45,035 bases of DNA from Candidatus Levyibacteriota bacterium (GTDB lineage Bacteria > Patescibacteriota > Microgenomatia > Levybacterales > UBA12049), in the NCBI GenBank assembly GCA_016214555.1, contig JACROF010000014.1, forward strand, positions 1 through 45,035, written 5' to 3'. This document shows positions 1-40,116 of the stretch, piece after piece. Position numbers and translations under genes: made by a program. The notes under the pieces were generated by a model. It was given only the letters and a program-made list of their open reading frames with translations, was not told where the DNA came from and did not search any database. The stretch's first letter is position 1, and every line of letters starts with the position of its first letter.

Positions 1-393
<393 letters not shown>

Positions 394-16777: not shown

Positions 16778-17767
16778 ATGCAATCAATTAAAAAGCACCC
16801 CGAATACGAGTATCTTGATCTTCTCCGGGAAATTATCGATCATGGCATTAAGAATGTGGATCGCGGAACAGGTGCAGTTAGCTACAGTCTTTTTGGAAGA
16901 CAGACGAGGTATGATCTTTCAAAAGGATTTCCTCTTTTGACAACAAAAAAAGTGTATTGGAAAGGCGTTCTTCATGAACTTTATTGGTTCATGTCAGGCA
17001 ATTCAAATATTAAGTATCTTGTTGATAACAACGTCCATATTTGGGATGATTATCCATTCAAGATTTATAAAGAGAAATGGCAAATGGAAAATGGCAAATG
17101 GCAAAAAGGGAAAGAATTAACCAAGGATGAGTTTGTTCAAAAGATTGCGTCTGATAATAAATTCGCCAAAAAGTGGGGGGAGCTTCGACATATTTATGGA
17201 GAGAGTTGGAGACGGTGGCCAACAGGAACTAATCGCACTATTGACCAGCTCAAATGGGTTGTGACTGAGCTGACCGAGGACCCTGATGCAAGAAATGCCA
17301 TTGTTACCTCATGGGATCCAAAATATCTCTATACTATGGCTCTCAAAAAAGACGCCAATCGATTTCCTATCTGTCATAATATGTATCAGGTTTCCCAAAA
17401 AGATGGAAAACTTTATTTACAATTGTATCAGCGAAGCGCTGATATGTTCTTGGGAGTGCCATTTAATATCGCAAGCTATGCCCTTTTGACTATCATTCTG
17501 GCGCGAGTACTCAAACTTGAACCTGGAGAATTTATTCATACATTTGGGGATTGTCACATTTATGAAAATCATCTTGAGCAGGTAAAAGAACAGCTCAAAA
17601 GAAAACCTCGACCTCTTCCGACTGTAACTCTTGATAAAAAAGCAACATCGATTGATAATTTTCGTCCAGAACACGTCATCTTGGAAAATTATGATCCTCA
17701 TCCATCCCTCAAAGGAGAACTAACCATAGCCGGTGGCCTCTATCAAGGTAAAAAGAAGAAGAAATAA
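16778..17767 (+). CDS. thyA: Thymidylate synthase
   Basis: DRGTGA, FPLLTTKKV, ELYWF, PICH, YQRSADMFLGVPFNIASY, HIYENH. Confidence 0.98.
   Translation: MQSIKKHPEYEYLDLLREIIDHGIKNVDRGTGAVSYSLFGRQTRYDLSKGFPLLTTKKVYWKGVLHELYWFMSGNSNIKYLVDNNVHIWDDYPFKIYKEKWQMENGKWQKGKELTKDEFVQKIASDNKFAKKWGELRHIYGESWRRWPTGTNRTIDQLKWVVTELTEDPDARNAIVTSWDPKYLYTMALKKDANRFPICHNMYQVSQKDGKLYLQLYQRSADMFLGVPFNIASYALLTIILARVLKLEPGEFIHTFGDCHIYENHLEQVKEQLKRKPRPLPTVTLDKKATSIDNFRPEHVILENYDPHPSLKGELTIAGGLYQGKKKKK
17075..17102 (+). repeat. Tandem heptamer (AAATGGC/A) x4 inside thyA
   Basis: aaatggc aaatgga aaatggc aaatggc, encoding KWQMENGKWQ. Confidence 0.85.
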
Positions 17768-19744: not shown

Positions 19745-20761
19745 ATGAAGTATTTAAAAAAGACAGATTCACAAATATATACACTCATCAAAAAAGAAGA
19801 GCAGCGTCAAAAGGACGTTTTGGAAATGATCGCCTCAGAAAATTTTGTTTCTGCTCACTACAATCTTGGCAAAGATGGGATTCTTGATTATGATGCCATT
19901 GAGGAACAAGTGCTCAAGGAAAAACCAGCACTTCTTATTTGTGGATTTACAGCATATCCTCGAAAGATTAATTTCAAACGTTTTGGCGAGATAGCAGACA
20001 AAGCGGGTTGTTATCTCATGGCTGATGTGTCACATATTACCGGTCTTATTGTTGCTGGAGTCCATCCAACACCGGTTCCATACGCACATATCGTTACTAC
20101 CACAACGCATAAAACGCTTCGAGGACCAAGAGGTGCTCTTATTATGGTGACCCAAAAAGGTCTTAAGAAAAATCCTGACCTTCCAAAACAAATTGAGACG
20201 GCAATCATTCCCGGTCTCCAGGGTGGGCCTCACGACAACCAAACAGCAGCAATTGCAGTATGTCTGAGAGAAGCAGCGACACCAAAATTCAAAAAATATG
20301 GAGAGCAGATAGTGCTCAATGCCAAAGCGCTTGCAGAGGGGCTAAAAAGTTACGGTTTTGAGTTGGTAGGTGGAGGCACTGACAATCACCTAATCCTCAT
20401 TGATCTTCGAAATAAAAAAGTCAATGGGCGAGTGGCTGCGATTGCTCTTGAAAAAGCGGGGATAGTCCTTAACTACAATGGCGTTCCAGGAGATCCCATG
20501 CCGCCTCTTTTCTCAAGTGGCATTCGTCTTGGCACTCCAGCTATTACGACAAGAGGACTAAAAGAGCGGGATATGAAAAAAGTTGCCAAGTGGTATAGTC
20601 AGGCAGTTGATCAGGTAAAAGGAATGGAGCTTCCTGTTGATGACAAGGCAAAACGTTCAGAGCTTATGAAAAAATACAGAGGTGAGATTGAGAAAAATAA
20701 AGTCCTTGCTGCAATTGGAAAAGAAGTAAAAACCTTTATTAGTAAATACCCACTTCCGTAA
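19745..20761 (+). CDS. glyA: Serine hydroxymethyltransferase with large in-frame internal deletion (pseudogene or misassembly)
   Basis: IASEN, ADVSH, TTTHKTLRGPRG, QGGPH, GTDNHL, GIRLGTPA present; NKYxEGYPGxRYY, SGSxAN and GGHLTHG absent; 338 aa. Confidence 0.9.
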   Translation: MKYLKKTDSQIYTLIKKEEQRQKDVLEMIASENFVSAHYNLGKDGILDYDAIEEQVLKEKPALLICGFTAYPRKINFKRFGEIADKAGCYLMADVSHITGLIVAGVHPTPVPYAHIVTTTTHKTLRGPRGALIMVTQKGLKKNPDLPKQIETAIIPGLQGGPHDNQTAAIAVCLREAATPKFKKYGEQIVLNAKALAEGLKSYGFELVGGGTDNHLILIDLRNKKVNGRVAAIALEKAGIVLNYNGVPGDPMPPLFSSGIRLGTPAITTRGLKERDMKKVAKWYSQAVDQVKGMELPVDDKAKRSELMKKYRGEIEKNKVLAAIGKEVKTFISKYPLP

Positions 20762-21205
20762 TTCAGGATGTAGAATTCAAAATTCAGAATATTTATATTT
20801 TGGAATTACTTTTAGTATTTAGAATAATTGTTGACAACAATCTCTTAAGTTCTTCACACTCATTATAGATTTTTTCTATCTTATCCATTTTCTTGAGGTT
20901 TGTCTCTTTAATAAGCGCTAGCCAGTAGAGGGTTTCCGAAGCTGACTTTAGTGCGATATTAAAATAATTAATATATTCACGTTTTGAGGTGCTATTGCCA
21001 CCCTCAACGACATTTGCTCCGATTGAAGTTCCTGAACGAACAACTTGATCTAAGAGTGGCCAGTTTGTCCGATTGCCTTTTAGGTCTTCTGAGAGCTCAA
21101 GTATCTTTAATGAAAAAAGAAAACATCGCTTTTTAAATTCTTTTTTGAAATCTGCTTTTTCTTGCGTTGTGTTCATTCTGAACTCTGAATTATTAATTCC
21201 GAATT
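20760..21205 (-). mobile_element. Putative IVS-like element: four-helix-bundle ORF enclosed by 31-nt imperfect heptamer inverted arms
   Basis: Arms 20760-20790 and 21175-21205, 24/31 Watson-Crick plus 3 G-U pairs in the sense RNA; mobility is inferred only. Confidence 0.6.
20793..21176 (-). CDS. Four helix bundle protein (23S rRNA IVP / bAvd-like family)
   Basis: DQVVRSGTSIGANVVEG, SKREYINYFNIALKSASETLYWL. Confidence 0.93.
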   Translation of the reverse strand: MNTTQEKADFKKEFKKRCFLFSLKILELSEDLKGNRTNWPLLDQVVRSGTSIGANVVEGGNSTSKREYINYFNIALKSASETLYWLALIKETNLKKMDKIEKIYNECEELKRLLSTIILNTKSNSKI

Positions 21206-21209
21206 CTTA

Positions 21210-23990
21210 TCATGGTGCGACTTCTTGCCAGATGTAGTTGGGGACTCTCATGATATCGGGAGCGTTGAGGACAAAGTCTGGCCTTTCTTTGATCATAAAT
21301 GATGGGAAGTTGACATTGCTCGTGCAGAGATCACGATTGTTGACAAAATCACCTACGTCATCACTGTTGGCGTCAACAACGATTGCTCCCTGGACGTTAA
21401 GTTGGAGATCTGGCACTTTAGGTGTTGCTGAACAGTCAGCGCTAGATCCTGTATTAAATGCTCTATCAGTGCTGAAGAACCCTTCTATATTTGCACTCCC
21501 TACACTTGGTGCTGGGCATGTTGCTGTTCTTCCGAGCGTTGGACTGACGTTGATATCTCCTGACGAGGAGACAAAAAGCGTTGAGGTGGTTGGGACATGA
21601 ATATTTCCATTAATAGTGACAGTCCCGTCGATGAGGATAACAATATCGCGATTCGCTGCGAGAGTAGCGCCGCCAAAGGTAACGTTACCCGTTGTGACGT
21701 AGACTCCATTGGTAAGTATTGAAAGATTGCAGCTGTTAACATTGCATACATTAGAAAGTGGTGTAGTCGTTATTTTAGATTGTGAAACAACAGATTGCAT
21801 GTATGTGTAGGATGTTTTGATGCTGCCATTGCTTGGGCTAAAGACTTCCGGATACGCACTTCCGCCAACAATCCAATTTTTCGGTGTTCCTGCATTGCCA
21901 AACCAAAAGTCGCCTGGCGCATCACCTGTGAATGCTACGCCATTAGTTGATGAGCCATTGGGGAGAAGCCCAAAAGCGCCAGTGCATAAGCTATCAGGAT
22001 CAGGAGGGATGGGGTTATCAACGCCATTATCAAACCTTACATCAAAACCATATGACTGCCACCATGGTTGACCACCACGGATCGCAAAATTTAATTCTGT
22101 GAGATTACCACTTGCACATGTTCCTCCAGGGGTTGGAGAGGCAGGGCTGCAGCCGGATCCAACAGTTGCGTTAAATGAAGCAGGGGGACCATTTTGAGGG
22201 TGGATCATAACATAGCCTGTTGGTAAATTGGGATACTCAACGGTATAATTTCCAGATATTAGCCCTTCAACAAGATATGAACCGTCGCTGTTGTTGGTGA
22301 CAACAGGCGTTGGAGCATTTGCTGGAAGGTCATCGATAGTAATGCCAGGATTGGCTGGATAGTTAATTTCACTGCCATCTTTAACTCCATTTTCTGCTCC
22401 ATCATCAACGAAAACATTCCCTGATGCAGTATATTTTGGAAAGAATCTGAGGTTTTGTCCGGTAAGATCAGACCTAGCGTCAAAGTCTGCTGATCTTGGT
22501 TGGGTTCCAAGGGGATTGTAGTCATTTCCAGGATTGGCACTTATGTTGTAGGTTCCTGGTTCCAAGACTGGGGAGGTGTAGTTGCCACTAGAGTTGGTAG
22601 TGGCTGTTTTTGTTTCGGGTCCAGTGAATGTGACTGTCACTCCAGAGAGAGGCATATCAACTGAGCTGTTGTATGATGAGCTCTTGTCCATATCAGCATA
22701 AATTCTTCCCTGGATGGTATACCCTACGCTGTACTCAACCGTTACTTGATTATTGCCTGTTTTAGTGTCGACAATATTTCTATCAAAATTAAGAAAGACA
22801 CGAGCTGTATAAGTCCCTTTTTGTGAGAGATCCCATGCTTGTTGATTAATAAATCTATCGCATCTGAGTCCTGGGTTTGGCTTACAGTAGTATTCAGCGC
22901 TAACCCCAGCATTAAATTCGCCGTTTCTTAGGAGAACATCGGTATCTCCAACAGTATCAGGGTCAACGGTATTTGGCTCATTTTTATAAAACCACGTATA
23001 GGTATATTGATCATTTAAGTCTTTTGAAAGAGCTGTCGCATCACCAACATTTTCAATGGTAACTTTTGGAAATATATTTTCACTTATGGCAAATGTTGTT
23101 CGTGTCTGACCACTTCCATTGGTAAGCTCAAAATTTGTTACTCCGATATCTGGGTTGCCAATGACATAGCGAAATTGAGCCTGGTTGTTTGTATAGTTTT
23201 GATCTTCGTCGGGATAGGCATTGAGAGGATCGACAAAGATAAGCGCTGTTCGGGGTTCGTCTGTTCCTCCTGATGCGCTAAAAGAATTTGATCCGATATA
23301 TCTATCGGTATTTGTTGCACCAGGGCGTGAGTCATAAGTCATGGTGGTTCCTGGAGAAAAATCACTGCTATTGTCTTTGATATAGCTGGAGGTGAGGCCG
23401 CTTCGAGGGCTTGTGAAGAGTGTGTCTTGTGTTTGGTAGAGATTGGCATAGACATCGGTACCATCAGGATCCAATTCTCCGATATTTTTAATCTGAGCGT
23501 ACCAATAGATGTCCTCATCTGGTTGGAAATTAAAACTTCTCCCTCCTGTATCTTTGAGATAGAAATTGGTGACCTCAAAATCAGCAGGTGCTGGATAGGG
23601 ATATGGGTAGGGGTAAGGATATGGATAGGGATATGGGTAGGGGTAAGGATATGGATAGATTGGCCCACCCCCGCCACCCCCAGGGAGATCGCTGCAACTG
23701 CCTCCAACGACACAATCGCCATGTCCTATGCATGGATTTCCGCAGGTAAATTGACTTACCGTATCACAGCGTATAATGGAAATGTTTCCTTCTCCCGAGC
23801 CACACGAGTCAGTGCAGACACACTCAATTGGTCCTCCTGGAAGGCAGTTTGTAGGCGTGCATGTTCTTTGCGTGTAATCGCATGAAACACTCACACCAGC
23901 GCATTGCGCATTAGTTAATTGGGGAAATATAGCAGTGAGAAGGCTAAGCAATAAAAGAGCAATCGGCAGGAGGAGCTTTTGTGAGTACAT
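21210..23990 (-). CDS. Large secreted protein: Cys-rich N-terminus, Gly6-(YP)11 linker, two CARDB-like domains, SdrD-B-like domains, beta-helix-like C-terminus
   Basis: Signal peptide; ADFEVTNF...IKNIG...NNQ and PDIGVTNF...IENVG...NNQ; ADMDKS loop; GNVT/GTVTINGNI repeats. Confidence 0.75.
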   Translation of the reverse strand: MYSQKLLLPIALLLLSLLTAIFPQLTNAQCAGVSVSCDYTQRTCTPTNCLPGGPIECVCTDSCGSGEGNISIIRCDTVSQFTCGNPCIGHGDCVVGGSCSDLPGGGGGGPIYPYPYPYPYPYPYPYPYPYPYPAPADFEVTNFYLKDTGGRSFNFQPDEDIYWYAQIKNIGELDPDGTDVYANLYQTQDTLFTSPRSGLTSSYIKDNSSDFSPGTTMTYDSRPGATNTDRYIGSNSFSASGGTDEPRTALIFVDPLNAYPDEDQNYTNNQAQFRYVIGNPDIGVTNFELTNGSGQTRTTFAISENIFPKVTIENVGDATALSKDLNDQYTYTWFYKNEPNTVDPDTVGDTDVLLRNGEFNAGVSAEYYCKPNPGLRCDRFINQQAWDLSQKGTYTARVFLNFDRNIVDTKTGNNQVTVEYSVGYTIQGRIYADMDKSSSYNSSVDMPLSGVTVTFTGPETKTATTNSSGNYTSPVLEPGTYNISANPGNDYNPLGTQPRSADFDARSDLTGQNLRFFPKYTASGNVFVDDGAENGVKDGSEINYPANPGITIDDLPANAPTPVVTNNSDGSYLVEGLISGNYTVEYPNLPTGYVMIHPQNGPPASFNATVGSGCSPASPTPGGTCASGNLTELNFAIRGGQPWWQSYGFDVRFDNGVDNPIPPDPDSLCTGAFGLLPNGSSTNGVAFTGDAPGDFWFGNAGTPKNWIVGGSAYPEVFSPSNGSIKTSYTYMQSVVSQSKITTTPLSNVCNVNSCNLSILTNGVYVTTGNVTFGGATLAANRDIVILIDGTVTINGNIHVPTTSTLFVSSSGDINVSPTLGRTATCPAPSVGSANIEGFFSTDRAFNTGSSADCSATPKVPDLQLNVQGAIVVDANSDDVGDFVNNRDLCTSNVNFPSFMIKERPDFVLNAPDIMRVPNYIWQEVAP
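23593..23658 (-). repeat. (Tyr-Pro)11 coding repeat containing an exact 30-bp tandem duplication
   Basis: ggatagggatatgggtaggggtaaggatat x2 plus ggatag. Confidence 0.95.
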
Positions 23991-30221: not shown

Positions 30222-31058
30222 ATGAAAAATATTACACTTGAACAATTGTTAGAAGTTGGTAGTCATTTTGGCCACCAAGTAACCCGCCAAAACCCAAAAG
30301 CTCGCGACTATATTTTCGAAGCTCGCGACAATATCCATATTATCGATCTTGCAAAAACAAAAGAAGGCCTTGATGAGGCTGCCGAATTTGTCAAAAATCT
30401 TGCTCGAAGAGAAGGATCAACCATGATCATTCTTGGAGCAAAAAGACAAGCTGAGACTCTTGTTAAAGATGCTTCCAAAAAAGCAAAAGAAGCTGGAGTT
30501 GATGGTCTTTATTTTGTTACCAACAGATGGATCGGTGGTATCCTCACAAATTATCAAGAAGTATCTAAAAATTTTAAAAGATTAAAAGATCTTACTAAAT
30601 TTATGGATACCCCATCAGAAAAAGCTCGATTTACCAAAAAAGAAGTATCTCTTATGGAGAAAGAGCGCGCGAAGCTTGAGAGTTTTTATTGGGGAGTTGC
30701 TGACATGAAACATGTTCCTGATGCTGTTTTTGTTATTGATACTCATTTGGAAGATTTGGCTGTTAAGGAAGCGCTTGCTACCAATATTACGACAGTTGGT
30801 ATCACTGACACTAACGCAGATCCAACCATTATTGATTACCCAATTCCTGCAAATGACGATGCTGTGGGATCAGTTGAGTTGATTTTGACACATATTGTCG
30901 AAGCGTGGATCGAGGGTCGAAAAAATATGGAAGAGGCAGCAAAACCAGAAGCTGAAGCAAAAGCAAAAGTTGAAGAGAAAAAAGAGCCAACAAAAGAAAA
31001 AGTAGCTTCAAAAGAGGAAAAAGTTAAAAAAACTCCTGCAAAAAAAACAACAAAATAA
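30222..31058 (+). CDS. rpsB: 30S ribosomal protein S2
   Basis: LLEVGSHFGH, HIIDL, RWIGGILTN, DTNADP, PANDD; Lys/Glu-rich tail; real start MKNIT at 30222. Confidence 0.98.
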   Translation: MKNITLEQLLEVGSHFGHQVTRQNPKARDYIFEARDNIHIIDLAKTKEGLDEAAEFVKNLARREGSTMIILGAKRQAETLVKDASKKAKEAGVDGLYFVTNRWIGGILTNYQEVSKNFKRLKDLTKFMDTPSEKARFTKKEVSLMEKERAKLESFYWGVADMKHVPDAVFVIDTHLEDLAVKEALATNITTVGITDTNADPTIIDYPIPANDDAVGSVELILTHIVEAWIEGRKNMEEAAKPEAEAKAKVEEKKEPTKEKVASKEEKVKKTPAKKTTK

Positions 31059-31120
31059 TTCAAAATTTAGAATTCAAAATTCAGAGTTAATTCTGAATTA
31101 TAAAATCTGAATTCTACATT
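31057..31120. repeat. Empty AATTCAG-family heptamer hairpin between rpsB and tsf
   Basis: aattcaa aatttag aattcaa aattcag / ctgaatt ataaaat ctgaatt ctacatt; 18 nt identical to 20771-20788. Confidence 0.85.
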
Positions 31121-31128
31121 ACAATAAT

Positions 31129-33156: not shown

Positions 33157-33298
33157 GCGTATGGCGAATAGCAGATGGTGTATGGTTCTACTGTTTGTTT
33201 TTAAGCCATAGCTTAAACGACTGAATCTTCTTAACTAATATTTCCGCTTGTAGATAAAGTTTAATATAGCGAAGCGAGCTATTTGCCATAAGCTATAA
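33157..33298. repeat. Heptamer inverted arms enclosing a probable four-helix-bundle gene remnant
   Basis: gcgtatggcgaatagc (33157-33172) pairs with gctatttgccataagc (33278-33293). Confidence 0.75.
33188..33289 (-). pseudogene. 33-codon mini-ORF resembling an internally deleted four-helix-bundle gene
   Basis: MANSSLRYIKLYLQAEILVKKIQSFKLWLKNKQ*; not in the supplied ORF track. Confidence 0.5.
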
Positions 33299-33319
33299 GC
33301 GAATGTATAATTAAACTTC

Positions 33320-34504
33320 ATGCTACTTACAGCCCTTGTTTTCCTCATCATCTTAAGCGTTCTTGTCCTCATTCACGAGCTTGGTCATTTTCTGGTAGCA
33401 AAAAAACTCAATATTAAGGTAGAAGAATTCGGATTTGGATTTCCTCCTCGCCTTTTTGGAATTAAAAGAGGCGAAACTATCTACTCAATTAACTGGCTTC
33501 CTATTGGTGGTTTTGTGAAATTGTATGGAGAGGATGATGCAGGTGGGGGTACAGTAAAATTAAAAATTAAAAATGAAAAATTAAAAATGAAGGAGCTTCA
33601 CAGAGCTTTTTTTGTAAGGTCAGTTGGGCAGCGGGCAGCTGTTGTTGTTGCTGGCGTTGTAATGAATACATTTCTAGCAATCATTATCTTTTATGTTTTT
33701 TTGTTTGTTTCAGGATTTAAGACTGAACTTCCTCTTTTGACTGATCACAAATTTATTGGAGTTACTCGATCAAACAAGACTGATATTATCGTCACATCAG
33801 TGCAAAAGGACTCGCCTGCACAAAAAGCAGGGATCCCAATTTATGGGAAGATAATAAGTATTAATGATCAGGCTATCGGTTCTTCTGAAAATTTTATTAC
33901 AACAGTTAAAAAATATCAGGGAAAAACTATTAAGATTGCCTGGCTTGACCCAAAAACACAAAAGAAAGTTGTCGCACAACTTGTTCCAAGACTAAATCCT
34001 CCAAAAGGACAGGGTGCTGTTGGGGTTAGTCTCTATGGTATAAAGACGGCAATTCTTGATTATCAAACAACCGGGCAAAGATTTTTTTCAGGGATATCGC
34101 ATCCGTTCAATCTAATTGTTTATAATGTTGAGCTTATGAAAAATCTCGTTGCTTCAGCGGTGCGTGAGAAAGATGCATCTCAACTTGGAGAGGGATTTGC
34201 AGGCCCCGTTGGTATTTACTCACTCGTTGGAACTATTGTCCAAATTCCAGATCTTAAGGAGAGAGTTTTGCAACTTCTTAATTTGGCTGGTCTATTGTCA
34301 ATGTCGCTTGCTGTTTTTAACATACTCCCGATACCAGCACTTGATGGTGGAAGGTTATTTTTCATTCTTATTGAAGGAATATTCAGAAAAAAAGTAAGCG
34401 TGCGATTTGAGACACTAGCTCATACTATTGGCATGATAGTACTTCTTGGTTTGATTGTTGTAATTACTTTTAATGATATTTTTAGATTCATTCTTAATCG
34501 CTAG
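33320..34504 (+). CDS. rseP: RIP metalloprotease (M50) with PDZ domain
   Basis: HELGH, LPIGGFVKLYGE, AGVVMN, SPAQKAG, GPVGI, NILPIPALDGG. Confidence 0.96.
   Translation: MLLTALVFLIILSVLVLIHELGHFLVAKKLNIKVEEFGFGFPPRLFGIKRGETIYSINWLPIGGFVKLYGEDDAGGGTVKLKIKNEKLKMKELHRAFFVRSVGQRAAVVVAGVVMNTFLAIIIFYVFLFVSGFKTELPLLTDHKFIGVTRSNKTDIIVTSVQKDSPAQKAGIPIYGKIISINDQAIGSSENFITTVKKYQGKTIKIAWLDPKTQKKVVAQLVPRLNPPKGQGAVGVSLYGIKTAILDYQTTGQRFFSGISHPFNLIVYNVELMKNLVASAVREKDASQLGEGFAGPVGIYSLVGTIVQIPDLKERVLQLLNLAGLLSMSLAVFNILPIPALDGGRLFFILIEGIFRKKVSVRFETLAHTIGMIVLLGLIVVITFNDIFRFILNR
33557..33591 (+). repeat. Tandem heptamer (AAATT/GAA) x5 inside rseP
   Basis: aaattaa aaattaa aaatgaa aaattaa aaatgaa, encoding KLKIKNEKLKMK. 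Confidence 0.85.
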
Positions 34505-39171: not shown

Positions 39172-40116
39172 ATGCAAATCGGATTTATTGGTCTTGGAAA
39201 AATGGGTACTCGAATGGTACTTAAGCTTCTTGAGGGGGGCCATGAGGTTGTTGTTTGGAATAGATCAAGCGCTCCTATACAGGATCTCCAACTCAAAATT
39301 CAAAACTCAAAAGTCAAAATTACAACTCAAAACTTAAAAGTTTCAGAATCAATAGAGGCATTGATTTTACAATTACAAAAACCTCGAGTCGTTTGGTCAA
39401 TGCTGCCGGCTGGGGATGCCACTGAGTCGACACTTCAGGGAATTGCAAAGTATGTTGAAAAGGGCGACATTGTTATAGATGGCGGCAATGCCTTTTATAA
39501 AGACACACAGCGAAGGTTTGATACGTTTAGTGCAAGGGGCATAGCGTTTTTAGGCATTGGGGTGAGTGGGGGGATTAAGGCATCAGAGACAGGTTATCCA
39601 TTAATGGTGGGTGGAGATAAGGGCAGTTTTGAAATTATCAAACCAATACTTGAAAGTTTGATAAAACCACACGGAGGCTATGAATATTTTGGAACAGGTG
39701 GAGCTGGGCATTTTGTCAAAATGGTCCATAATGGCATTGAGTATGGCATGATGCAGGCAATTGGTGAAGGGTATGGGGTTTTGGAAAAAGCACCCTATGA
39801 GTTGGATCTCATAAAAGTTGCAAAGCTTTGGCAGAAAAATACTATTGTCACAAGTTTTCTTAATGAATGCGCCAAAGATGCACTCGTTAAAGACCCAAGT
39901 TTGTCAAATTTGGATGGTGTTATTGATGCGACTGGTGAAGCAGAATGGACAGTCAATCGGGCGAAAGAAGAAAATGTTTATGCTGAAAATATCGACCAGT
40001 CTTTAGATTTCCGCAGGCGTTCGAAAACAGATAAAGCTGTTTCATCTTCATTTGCAGCGCGAATGGTCGCAGCGCTCCGCCATGAATTCGGCGGACATAA
40101 AGTTAAGGAGAAGTAA
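39172..40116 (+). CDS. gnd: 6-phosphogluconate dehydrogenase (decarboxylating, short type)
   Basis: IGFIGLGKMG, IDGGN, VSGG, GHFVKMVHNGIEYG, LRHEFGGH. Confidence 0.96.
   Translation: MQIGFIGLGKMGTRMVLKLLEGGHEVVVWNRSSAPIQDLQLKIQNSKVKITTQNLKVSESIEALILQLQKPRVVWSMLPAGDATESTLQGIAKYVEKGDIVIDGGNAFYKDTQRRFDTFSARGIAFLGIGVSGGIKASETGYPLMVGGDKGSFEIIKPILESLIKPHGGYEYFGTGGAGHFVKMVHNGIEYGMMQAIGEGYGVLEKAPYELDLIKVAKLWQKNTIVTSFLNECAKDALVKDPSLSNLDGVIDATGEAEWTVNRAKEENVYAENIDQSLDFRRRSKTDKAVSSSFAARMVAALRHEFGGHKVKEK
39290..39342 (+). repeat. Tandem AA(C/T/G)TCAA heptamers inside gnd
   Basis: aactcaa aattcaa aactcaa aagtcaa aattaca actcaa aacttaa, encoding QLKIQNSKVKITTQNLKV. Confidence 0.85.

What the first reader, a model, noticed from the sequence alone, without database searches (positions are those of the whole stretch)
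20760..21205. Four-helix-bundle gene packaged in heptamer inverted arms: candidate IVS-like mRNA element
Seen: 31-nt arms of AATTCAG-like units abut the ORF (one overlaps the ATG, the other begins 2 nt after the stop). They pair 24/31 by Watson-Crick, and 3 of the 7 differences are G-U pairs in the coding-sense RNA. Known: this protein family was first found in 23S rRNA intervening sequences excised from a stem by RNase III, and is structurally related to the DGR RNA-binding protein bAvd. Inference: a compact element outside rRNA whose RNA loops out or is excised, and which spreads without its own transposase or RT. Full, deleted, empty and scar forms all occur in this window, making it my best candidate for an undescribed system.
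Basis: partly seen in the sequence, partly recalled or inferred. Interest (0 to 1): 0.85.

Follow-up and report, generated by a model that had tools for sequence, protein, structure and literature searches.

The report
Small gene inside heptamer-repeat hairpin
A small four-helix-bundle gene sits in the loop of a long hairpin whose two arms are mirrored runs of 7-base repeats, the layout known from the 'intervening sequences' cut out of ribosomal RNA, and the same layout accompanies this gene family in many bacterial phyla.

Summary
A 127-aa PF05635 (23S_rRNA_IVP / Avd-like) gene at 20793-21176 (-) is bracketed by 31-nt inverted arms of AATTCAG-like heptamers (24/31 Watson-Crick, 3 G-U).

The layout is not local. 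Among 111 PF05635 loci from relatives and many phyla, each gene's two flanks complement each other better than 95% of cross-locus flank pairs in 72. The arms have period 7, sometimes 8, and their sequence differs from locus to locus.

Three orthologous elements downstream of the SHMT gene (called glyA here) show compensating C:G to A:U changes spaced 7 nt apart in a 27-bp stem.

Within the genus, orthologous sites are filled, cleanly empty, or keep arms without a gene. The window itself holds a full form, a deleted form (33157-33305) and a gene-less hairpin (31056-31121).

The one printed precedent I found is the Coxiella 23S rRNA IVS: heptameric repeats before the S23p start, a 28-bp stem, and RNase III cleavage.

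Best reading: an IVS-like cassette in intercistronic spacers, probably a long-range RNA stem cut by RNase III. That step is inferred.

Recent spread is not shown. Paralogs are old, I saw no target duplication, and G-U pairs are not in excess.

Period-7 arrays are commoner in genomes that carry the gene, with two exceptions among eight gene-less genomes.

The parts
21175..21205 (-). 5' arm in gene sense: about 4.4 AATTCAG-like heptamers. It overlaps the ATG by 2 nt and lies 4 nt after the stop (21210-21212) of the co-directional 926-aa gene.
   Evidence: (I1)
20793..21176 (-). PF05635 (23S_rRNA_IVP / Avd-like) gene, 127 aa, a four-helix bundle. R47-x3-S51-x3-N55-x2-E58 fits the family motif GxxRxxxSxxxNxxE.
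   Evidence: motif quoted from PMC3936711
20760..20790 (-). 3' arm in gene sense. It begins 2 nt after the gene's stop. Its far end overlaps the TAA stop (20759-20761) of the convergent SHMT gene.
31056..31121 (.). Gene-less hairpin of the same AATTCAG/AATTCAA unit family. It fills the spacer between the ribosomal protein S2 gene and the EF-Ts gene. The closest relative searched, G003, has a 5-nt spacer there.
33157..33305 (+). Deleted form. Arms 33157-33185 and 33278-33305 (GCGTATG-type units) enclose only 92 nt, between the RRF and M50-peptidase genes. The same arms enclose a 119-aa PF05635 gene in G003 and a frameshifted one in G002.
   Evidence: (L026)
39289..39322 (+). Single (unpaired) A-rich heptamer run inside the 6-phosphogluconate-dehydrogenase-like ORF, in a linker of variable length among orthologues. 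Any relation to the element is unproven.

Best explanation
The locus is an IVS-like cassette. A PF05635 (S23p / Avd-like, pentamer-forming four-helix-bundle) gene lies in the loop of a roughly 30-bp stem. The stem's arms are inverted arrays of about four heptamers that fill the spacers to the neighbouring genes.

Shown:
- The gene-plus-arms architecture is a conserved trait of the family across phyla.
- The arm sequence turns over much faster than the protein, while the two arms stay complementary. All units of both arms change together.
- The cassette is present or absent as a unit at orthologous sites, and it decays to gene-less hairpins that persist.
- It sits mostly inside co-directional gene strings.

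Inferred:
- The cassette is co-transcribed with its neighbours.
- The arms pair in the RNA. In this window that sequesters the start codon.
- RNase III, which this genome encodes, cuts the stem as it does in the rRNA versions. That would release the small mRNA and keep the insertion harmless to the host transcript.

Open: what the protein does. My preference is binding of structured nucleic acid, as Avd does in the DGR ribonucleoprotein, acting on the arms or on the gene-less hairpins by shape or periodicity rather than by sequence. This is a guess.

Gain and loss look slow, with old paralogs. This is not an actively transposing element.
For: Local anatomy. The MFE and centroid folds of the sense RNA both keep the terminal stem, with AUG paired.

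Generality:
- All 3 PF05635 genes of this genome have period-7 inverted arms with different units.
- 22 of 32 relatives' loci exceed the 99th percentile of 803 control ORFs.
- Among 111 loci, own-flank complementarity has a median of 15 against 8 for cross-locus pairs. 72 of 111 exceed the cross 95th percentile and 52 of 111 the 99th. The non-inverted control has a median of 8.
- The best period is 7 in 47 upstream and 43 downstream flanks, 8 in 10 and 12, and 9 in 1 and 1. Flank windows far from the gene are periodic in 17 of 446.
- By eye, most of 18 further paralogs in G025 and G027 have arms. So do 5 of 8 plasmid loci from cyanobacteria, Azospirillum and Riemerella.

Covariation:
- Orthologous glyA-site elements carry AATTCAG units in G000 and G002 and AATTAAG units in G004, with CTGAATT changed to CTTAATT in the other arm.
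- RNAalifold keeps a 27-bp terminal stem. Both-side changes fall at columns 26/464, 33/457 and 40/450, spaced 7 apart, and at 28/462.

Unit-wise gain and loss:
- G007 keeps the glyA...secreted-protein synteny without gene or arms.
- G000 C12 is a clean empty site where G002 is filled.
- Window 33157-33305 keeps G003's arms without the gene.

Operon setting: the upstream neighbour is co-directional in 93 of 112 loci and the downstream one in 96 of 112. Median gaps are 46 and 40 nt.

RNase III: a homologue lies at G000 C1:151879-152271.

Precedent (PMC4990558, passages): the Coxiella IVS has a 28-bp terminal stem and three tandem GACAGAT heptamers before the S23p start, with copy number varying between strains. 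RNase III cuts within the stem, as mapped by RACE.

Protein:
- AF2 model: pLDDT 93.4, four helices.
- Foldseek: 2RLD TM 0.77-0.91, 2GSC 0.65-0.78, bAvd 4DWL 0.69/0.80, and the Avd chain of DGR RNP 8UB7.
- 19 of 29 family members also hit PF22296 bAvd-like.
Against: - No wobble signature. There are 96 G-U against 81 A-C mismatches in 84 loci, so selection at the level of the sense RNA is not demonstrated. A DNA hairpin or cruciform fits equally well.
- The whole-element fold is only modestly better than shuffles (z = -1.70; 6 of 100 shuffles fold as well).
- 39 of 111 loci do not beat the cross-locus 95th percentile. About half of the flanks fail my strict periodicity threshold.
- Arrays are not tied absolutely to the gene. 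2 of 8 genomes with no PF05635 hit still carry them: G023 at 15 per 100 kb and G018 at 4.7.
- Housekeeping genes ssb and rpsR in this genome are also bracketed by such arrays.
- Arms are unrelated in sequence between proteins that are 45-65% identical. This argues against sequence-specific recognition of the heptamer by the protein.
- RNase III cleavage is taken from other organisms and from rRNA, not from mRNA.
Confidence: 0.55

Rival explanations
1. Cognate binding-site reading. The pentameric protein binds heptamer-repeat hairpins as RNA or DNA. Its own arms serve as an autoregulatory operator. The gene-less hairpins in operon spacers (S2|EF-Ts, rpsF|ssb|rpsR) form a regulon of processing or insulation sites.
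For: - Period-7 arrays per 100 kb are higher in 8 genomes with the gene (1-28) than in 8 without (0-15). One-sided Mann-Whitney p = 0.007, but the genomes are kin and not independent.
- In G027, 18 of 19 gene-less arrays best match the arms of that genome's own PF05635 genes, 12 of them one gene (L226).
- Arms run to about 29 nt, or about 4 units. The two solved family structures hold 5 chains per entry.
- An Avd chain sits in a solved DGR ribonucleoprotein (entry title only).
Against: - Arms lose all sequence similarity once proteins fall below about 55-65% identity.
- Orthologous proteins 63-69% identical carry different units (L001, L004, L007).
- In G000 only 3 of 26 gene-less arrays best match its own genes' arms, and in G025 12 of 27.
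- G023 has many arrays and no PF05635 hit.
- No binding test was done.
Confidence: 0.2
2. Mobile-element reading. The gene-plus-arms unit is an autonomous selfish element and the gene-less hairpins are its MITE-like derivatives. It spreads by an unknown route without a transposase or RT.
For: - Copy number runs from 0 to 20 among 41 relatives.
- Sites are filled or empty within one genus.
- One spacer (S2|EF-Ts) holds hairpins of different units in different lineages and none in the closest relative.
- The gene turns up in unrelated settings: inside rRNA, between cmr2 and cmr3, and between cas6 and cas4.
- One unit family is amplified in G027.
Against: - No near-identical copies. Paralogs within G000, G002, G025 and G027 have a median identity of 0.29-0.33 and a maximum of 0.61.
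- By eye I saw no target-site duplication or fixed termini at clean empty sites.
- The glyA-site gene tracks its host: 68% identity against 83.5% for SHMT between G000 and G002.
- RVT_1 was found in only 6 of 41 relatives, and in none of G000, G002 (10 copies) or G017 (20 copies).
Confidence: 0.15
3. Hairpin-first reading. Heptamer hairpins arise by themselves, through replication slippage plus palindrome correction, as generic intercistronic structures. The PF05635 gene is merely a passenger that survives best in, or is captured by, their loops.
For: - Gene-less arrays outnumber genes. G025 has 28 arrays per 100 kb against 11 genes in the genome.
- Arrays occur in two genomes with no PF05635 hit.
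- ssb and rpsR are bracketed too.
- An excess of heptameric repeats in bacteria, and inverted pairs in Xanthomonas, are reported without any link to a gene (PMC4692102, passages).
Against: - Clean empty sites have no arms, so arms come and go with the gene.
- The deleted form keeps the arms of the filled orthologue.
- Six of eight gene-less genomes have 0-1 arrays per 100 kb.
- It does not explain why this one family, in many phyla, is the passenger.
Confidence: 0.1

Closest known systems
ORF-bearing intervening sequences (IVS) of 23S rRNA (Coxiella burnetii helix 45; Leptospira)
   Same: - A PF05635/S23p ORF sits in the loop of a stem made by terminal inverted repeats. The Coxiella stem is 28 bp; here the median arm is about 29 nt.
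- Tandem heptameric repeats lie just before the start codon, and their copy number varies.
- RNase III is the enzyme that cuts the stem (PMC4990558, passages).
- ORF-less versions exist.
   Different: - This cassette is not in rRNA. It lies between protein genes, and Rfam finds only a 16S end and two tRNAs about 19 kb away.
- Both arms are heptamer arrays.
- The same layout holds for dozens of non-rRNA loci in many phyla. I found no paper in the searched library that says so.
- Cleavage was not tested here.
bAvd, accessory protein of diversity-generating retroelements
   Same: - Homologous four-helix bundle: PF22296 hits in 19 of 29 members, Foldseek 4DWL TM 0.69/0.80.
- The family forms pentamers (Lin 2006, as cited).
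- Avd is part of an RNA-protein complex (8UB7 entry title).
   Different: - No RVT_1 reverse transcriptase in this genome.
- No template or variable repeats were looked for.
- Avd genes are not described with heptamer arms. One true DGR-type pair seems to exist in G012.
Heptameric simple-sequence repeats: Xanthomonas GGGAATC and Nostoc GGGGA(C/T)T (cyanobacterial 'STRR', a name I recall)
   Same: Period 7, mostly intergenic. In Xanthomonas 70-75 sites are convergent inverted pairs able to form stem-loops. Their function is unknown (PMC4692102, passages).
   Different: That paper makes no link to any gene family: '23S', 'S23' and 'four helix' occur 0 times in it. Here the arrays bracket a specific gene and track its presence.
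MITE/REP-type intergenic palindromes
   Same: Small gene-less palindromic elements in spacers. They fall into families within a genome and have a possible gene-bearing parent.
   Different: The arms are internally tandem-periodic and differ between loci. I saw no fixed terminal repeats or target duplication. No transposase or RAYT-like gene is part of the unit.
RNase III intercistronic processing stems (rRNA operon stems, phage T7 early mRNA)
   Same: A long-range or local duplex of at least about 20 bp lies between cistrons and lets a polycistronic RNA be cut into units. T7 and rRNA are cited's reference list; the rest is recalled.
   Different: Here the stem encloses one particular gene family, is built from heptamer arrays, and turns over rapidly.

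Membership tests
PF05635 23S_rRNA_IVP / TIGR02436-type four helix bundle protein | Pfam HMM match above the gathering score | tested here: met
   E = 1e-22, 80.8 bits against 33.8, residues 15-115
PF05635 23S_rRNA_IVP / TIGR02436-type four helix bundle protein | Conserved motif GxxRxxxSxxxNxxE | tested here: met
   The window protein has R47, S51, N55 and E58. In alignment A1, Q44, S51, E58 and E81 are invariant, and R47, N55 and S78 are at least 90% conserved. The motif wording is from PMC3936711.
PF05635 23S_rRNA_IVP / TIGR02436-type four helix bundle protein | Four-helix-bundle fold like 2RLD/2GSC | tested here: met
   AF2 model with pLDDT 93.4 and helices 3-32, 36-60, 65-92, 94-126. Foldseek: 2RLD TM 0.77-0.91, 2GSC 0.65-0.78. 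Sequence: 2rld E = 6.9e-19.
PF05635 23S_rRNA_IVP / TIGR02436-type four helix bundle protein | Homopentameric torus | not tested
   The PDB entries 2GSC and 2RLD hold 5 chains each. The pentamer is stated in passages. No complex was predicted for the window protein.
rRNA intervening sequence (IVS) | Inserted in a 23S (or 16S) rRNA helix | tested here: not met
   It lies between the SHMT gene and a 926-aa protein gene. The only Rfam rRNA hit in the window is the 16S 3' end at 1-391.
rRNA intervening sequence (IVS) | Terminal inverted repeats that close a stem around the insert | tested here: met
rRNA intervening sequence (IVS) | Excision by RNase III | not testable with these tools
   An RNase III homologue is present in the genome. 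No RNA run is listed for this organism.
Diversity-generating retroelement | Reverse transcriptase next to the Avd-like gene | tested here: not met
   No RVT_1 match in G000. The neighbours are SHMT and an SdrD_B-like protein.
Transposon / MITE | Target-site duplication and near-identical dispersed copies | tested here: not met
   By eye, no duplication at empty-versus-filled pairs. Paralog identity is at most 0.61. Gene-less arrays do share units within a genome.

The most novel reading that the evidence does not exclude
PF05635 pentamers and heptamer-repeat hairpins form one widespread two-part system. The protein would recognise, maintain, homogenise or propagate inverted heptamer arrays. 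The gene-bearing cassette would be the parent of the gene-less hairpins. The long-noted excess of heptameric repeats in prokaryote genomes (the cyanobacterial and Xanthomonas repeats) would be the footprint of this system. That would make it a new kind of insertion that excludes itself at the RNA level, or a new RNA-processing regulon, working without a transposase or a reverse transcriptase.
Probability: 0.2. Interest if true: 0.9.

Novelty: new variant of a known kind. Interest (0 to 1): 0.78.

Why it matters
PF05635 is a large family with solved structures and no known function outside DGRs. Showing that its genes carry a conserved cis-structure gives the family a first testable handle. That structure is an inverted heptamer-array stem, and it has the same layout as the RNase III-excised rRNA intervening sequences.

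The result links three loose ends:
- why some rRNA IVSs carry this ORF;
- why the gene turns up wedged inside operons, such as between cmr2 and cmr3, between cas6 and cas4, and between S2 and EF-Ts relatives;
- possibly, why heptameric repeats and their inverted pairs are over-represented in some bacteria.

It also matters for annotation. Such arrays break assemblies (the contig C6 end). They can look like CRISPR-like or simple repeats. They also leave hairpins that may shape operon mRNA processing.

Tried and rejected
- **Wobble test for an RNA-level stem.** G-U against A-C mismatches in arm alignments came to 96 against 81 over the 84 of 111 loci with arm score 12 or more. There is no signal, so the test is inconclusive.
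- **Phase of the repeats.** I saw no fixed phase relative to the ATG. An SD-like motif lies within -20..-4 in 24 of 112 loci.
- **'Stops in all three frames' idea.** 7 is coprime to 3, and TAG is the commonest trinucleotide in 5' arms, with 98 occurrences. The support is weak. 30 of 60 5' arms have stops in 3 frames on the inward-reading strand against 19 of 60 on the other. For 3' arms it is 27 of 58 against 17 of 58.
- **Units per arm from my array finder.** The result was an artefact of the window size. I use the arm length instead.
- **Resident RT as a helper.** Rejected for this genus.
- **Protein-to-unit specificity.** Arms are similar only between proteins more than about 65% identical. 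The flanks scored there may include a few bases of neighbouring genes. L015 and L034 proved to be one and the same sequence, so '111 loci' holds 110 distinct ones.
- **RNA evidence.** No RNA holder was listed.
- **Population variant without the element.** Laying three DNA runs, which are contigs from one study and may include the source sample, showed a contig spanning the whole element and no joint across it.
- **Rfam.** Nothing at the element.
- **Literature.** Searches found only PMC4990558 linking heptamers to this ORF. The library lacks most subscription journals, and supplements were not opened. Ralph & McClelland 1993 (PMC47033) is not held. I know it, and Lin 2006, only as citations inside other papers.
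- **Not used.** Complex prediction, the search for homologous proteins, the search of protein representatives and the protein-atlas search.
- **Counts made by eye, not by script.** These are the presence of arms, the spacer survey, and the absence of a target duplication.
Full report
**What is there.** The window is one whole contig (C9) of a 1.05-Mb, 17-contig genome with about 39% G+C. At 20793..21176 on the minus strand lies a 127-aa ORF. It matches PF05635 23S_rRNA_IVP at E = 1e-22.

- It is bracketed by 31-nt inverted arms, 20760-20790 and 21175-21205, that are 77% complementary.
- The arms are made of AATTCAG-like heptamers.
- One arm overlaps the ATG by 2 nt. The other starts 2 nt after the stop.
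- The outer ends touch the TAA of the convergent SHMT gene and lie 4 nt from the stop of a co-directional 926-aa SdrD_B-like gene.
- The pairing is 24 Watson-Crick, 3 G-U, 1 A-C and 3 other.
- Folded as sense RNA, both the MFE and the centroid structures keep the terminal stem, with the AUG inside it. The whole-molecule z-score is only -1.70.

**More than chance, and not local.** The motif is enriched in the window: 30 matches against 13.4 expected, and 0 of 100 shuffles reach 30. In the genome, period 7 dominates all periods from 4 to 12 (28 arrays against 1-7).

The genome has three PF05635 genes. The other two, on C10, are also flanked by inverted period-7 arrays, but with different units (TAGGTTG/TAGATGG-type and AACTCAA-type).

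In 41 genomes of the same order, 32 carry the family, with 0-20 matches each. I took the best locus of each genome (32 loci). Flank complementarity exceeds the 99th percentile of 803 control ORFs in 22 of 32. Period-7 signal in both flanks exceeds it in 19 of 32. Periods 5, 6, 8 and 9 are not enriched overall, though a few loci use period 8.

A scan of one genome per species returned 80 more loci. They come from candidate-phyla bacteria, Bacteroidota, Acidobacteriota, Clostridia, Desulfobacterota, Verrucomicrobiota, Planctomycetota, Lentisphaerota and one Methanophagales archaeon. By eye nearly all show the same layout with yet other units.

Over all 111 usable loci (110 distinct, since L015 and L034 are identical):

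| Measure | Result |
|---|---|
| Own-flank complementarity, median | 15 |
| Cross-locus flank pairs, median | 8 |
| Non-inverted comparison, median | 8 |
| Loci above the cross 95th percentile | 72 of 111 |
| Loci above the cross 99th percentile | 52 of 111 |
| Best period, upstream / downstream flanks | 7 in 47 / 43; 8 in 10 / 12; 9 in 1 / 1 |
| Control windows that are periodic | 17 of 446 |

About half of the flanks fail the strict periodicity threshold, so the arms are often degenerate. Eighteen further paralogs in two genomes and plasmid loci from Nostoc punctiforme, Anabaena, Picosynechococcus, Azospirillum and Riemerella look the same. Nostoc 7120 and Gemmatirosa are unclear.

**Covariation.** The element downstream of the SHMT gene (called glyA here) is orthologous in G000, G002 and G004. 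The units are AATTCAG in the first two and AATTAAG in the third, and the other arm changes from CTGAATT to CTTAATT. RNAalifold on the three elements keeps a 27-bp terminal stem. Both-side (C:G to A:U) changes fall at columns 26/464, 33/457 and 40/450, exactly 7 apart, and at 28/462. So all units of both arms change together. Across the data set, arms lose all similarity once the proteins drop below about 55-65% identity.

**Filled, empty, deleted.**
- G007 keeps the glyA...secreted-protein synteny, but it has another small gene there and no arms.
- Where G002 has a cassette, G000 C12 has a clean spacer without arms.
- At another G002 site, G000 C4 has a gene-less hairpin with different units and a 55-nt loop.
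- In the window, the spacer between the RRF and M50-peptidase genes holds arms (33157-33185 and 33278-33305) around 92 nt. Its 3' arm is nearly identical to that of the 119-aa cassette at the same site in G003, and its 5' arm is of the same GCGTATG unit type. G002 has a frameshifted gene there.
- The S2|EF-Ts spacer holds a 66-nt hairpin of the AATTCAG family. The closest relative has a 5-nt spacer. Other lineages have hairpins with other units at that very spot.

The single in-ORF runs ('scars') are present but unexplained.

**Setting.** The neighbours are co-directional in 93 of 112 loci upstream and 96 of 112 downstream. Median gaps are 46 and 40 nt, so the arms fill the spacers of operon-like strings. 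The 5' arm is G-rich and C-poor (G 0.25, C 0.14) and the 3' arm is the reverse, with TAG the commonest triplet. For a symmetric hairpin this polarity holds on either strand.

**What is known.** Passages of PMC4990558 describe the Coxiella 23S rRNA IVS as follows:
- an S23p ORF sits in a stem-loop closed by a 28-bp terminal stem;
- three tandem GACAGAT heptamers precede the start codon, and their number varies among strains;
- RNase III cuts within the stem.

IVSs in other bacteria replace tetraloops by extended stem-loops, with or without an ORF. PMC3936711 reports 18 genes of the family inside cas loci. The preprint 10.1101/2024.02.27.582315 reports them in 16S and 23S insertions of candidate-phyla bacteria. 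Neither passage mentions flanking repeats. PMC4692102 describes heptameric repeats and 70-75 inverted pairs in Xanthomonas, and repeats in Nostoc, with unknown function and no gene link. Six searches found no paper that states the family-wide architecture. The library lacks most subscription journals.

**The protein.** It is a confident four-helix bundle. It is closest to 2RLD and 2GSC and next to bAvd, including the Avd chain of a DGR ribonucleoprotein. 19 of 29 relatives also match PF22296. The family motif is intact. There is no RVT_1 gene in this genome, and only 6 of 41 relatives have one. An RNase III homologue is present.

**Mechanism.**

*Shown:*
- a conserved gene-in-stem architecture;
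- concerted compensatory change of the arms;
- gain and loss of the cassette as a unit;
- decay to gene-less hairpins;
- an operon setting.

*Inferred:*
- co-transcription with the neighbours;
- a long-range RNA stem that hides the start codon;
- RNase III cleavage that frees the small mRNA and leaves the host transcript functional. This is the same logic that lets an IVS sit in rRNA.

Against over-reading:
- G-U is not in excess over A-C (96 against 81), so a DNA-level hairpin is not excluded.
- Paralogs are old (median about 30% identity, maximum 61%), so active transposition is not supported.

**Link between the gene and the arrays.** I sampled about 78-100 kb from each of 16 relatives and counted period-7 arrays per 100 kb.

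| Genomes | Arrays per 100 kb |
|---|---|
| Eight without a PF05635 hit | 0, 0, 0, 0, 0, 1, 4.7, 15 |
| Eight with the gene | 1, 2, 3, 5, 6.4, 19, 27, 28 |

The one-sided Mann-Whitney p is 0.007, but the genomes are related, so this overstates the case.

In G027, 18 of 19 gene-less arrays best match the arms of that genome's own genes. In G025 it is 12 of 27. In G000 it is 3 of 26, and six of G000's arrays match the arm type of a G002 gene that G000 lacks. The association is real but not absolute, and its direction is open.

**Verdict.** The finding is genuine. The closest known thing is the ORF-bearing rRNA IVS. This is a non-rRNA, intercistronic variant of it, and apparently the general state of the family. 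It is not a member of the rRNA IVS class by location, not a DGR, and not a classical transposon. The function of the protein and the level (RNA or DNA) at which the stem acts remain to be tested.

Noticed in passing
window 19745-20761 (joint at 19844/19852): The SHMT (glyA) ORF is only 338 aa. It matches the Pfam profile from position 145 on, while relatives have open frames of 403-502 aa. A contig of run X1 carries 313 extra letters between 19844 and 19852. The window therefore seems to lack about 102 codons, from an assembly error or a variant.
   Followed up: partly
G000 C6:5753-5899 (contig end) and C5 around 41.6 kb: About 20 tandem GGTATTG heptamers run to the end of contig C6. In G002 the flanks of this break are joined by a PF05635 cassette (L174). 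A long array probably broke the assembly and may hide a fourth cassette.
   Followed up: partly
G000 C1:217287-218283: The ssb-like gene (217679-218215) and the S18-like gene (217346-217591) are each bracketed by TTTGAGA/TTTTAAG-type heptamer arrays. These can also be read as local hairpins in the two spacers. The gene names are my reading of the translations; I did not run Pfam on them.
   Followed up: partly
window 17072-17109, 33553-33592, 39289-39322: Single, unpaired A-rich heptamer runs lie in frame inside the thymidylate synthase, M50 peptidase and 6-phosphogluconate-dehydrogenase-like genes. The last falls in a linker whose length varies among orthologues.
   Followed up: partly
G023 (no PF05635 hit, 97% complete), loci L251-L255: 15 period-7 arrays per 100 kb in a genome where the family was not found. 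Either the gene was lost recently or missed, or the arrays can live without it.
   Followed up: no
G012:C2:68155-69318: A weak PF05635 match (25 bits) lies 244 nt from an RVT_1 gene on the opposite strand. This looks like a true DGR Avd-RT pair, unlike the cassette studied here.
   Followed up: no
L242 (Picosynechococcus plasmid), L244 (Anabaena sp. 90 plasmid): 'Four helix bundle protein' genes with heptamer arms sit between cas10/cmr2 and cmr3, and between cas6 and cas4. They lie inside CRISPR-Cas operons without interrupting any gene.
   Followed up: partly
L040, L049, L055, L066, L067, L083, L089, L091, L111, L112: In ten Flavobacteriia/Bacteroidota loci the cassette lies just before a gene that starts MNLTLKIWRQ.... 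I recall that as the iron-sulfur subunit of succinate dehydrogenase/fumarate reductase, but did not test it. The site is the same in all ten while the arm units differ.
   Followed up: no
window 21210-23990 (-): The 926-aa neighbour has a signal-like N-terminus, a (PY)n run of about 11 repeats and an SdrD_B-like domain. It is conserved next to the cassette in G002, G004 and G007.
   Followed up: no
window 1-391, 822-894, 1475-1546: The contig starts with the 3' end of a 16S rRNA gene, followed by two tRNAs. Rfam reports no 23S gene in the window.
   Followed up: no
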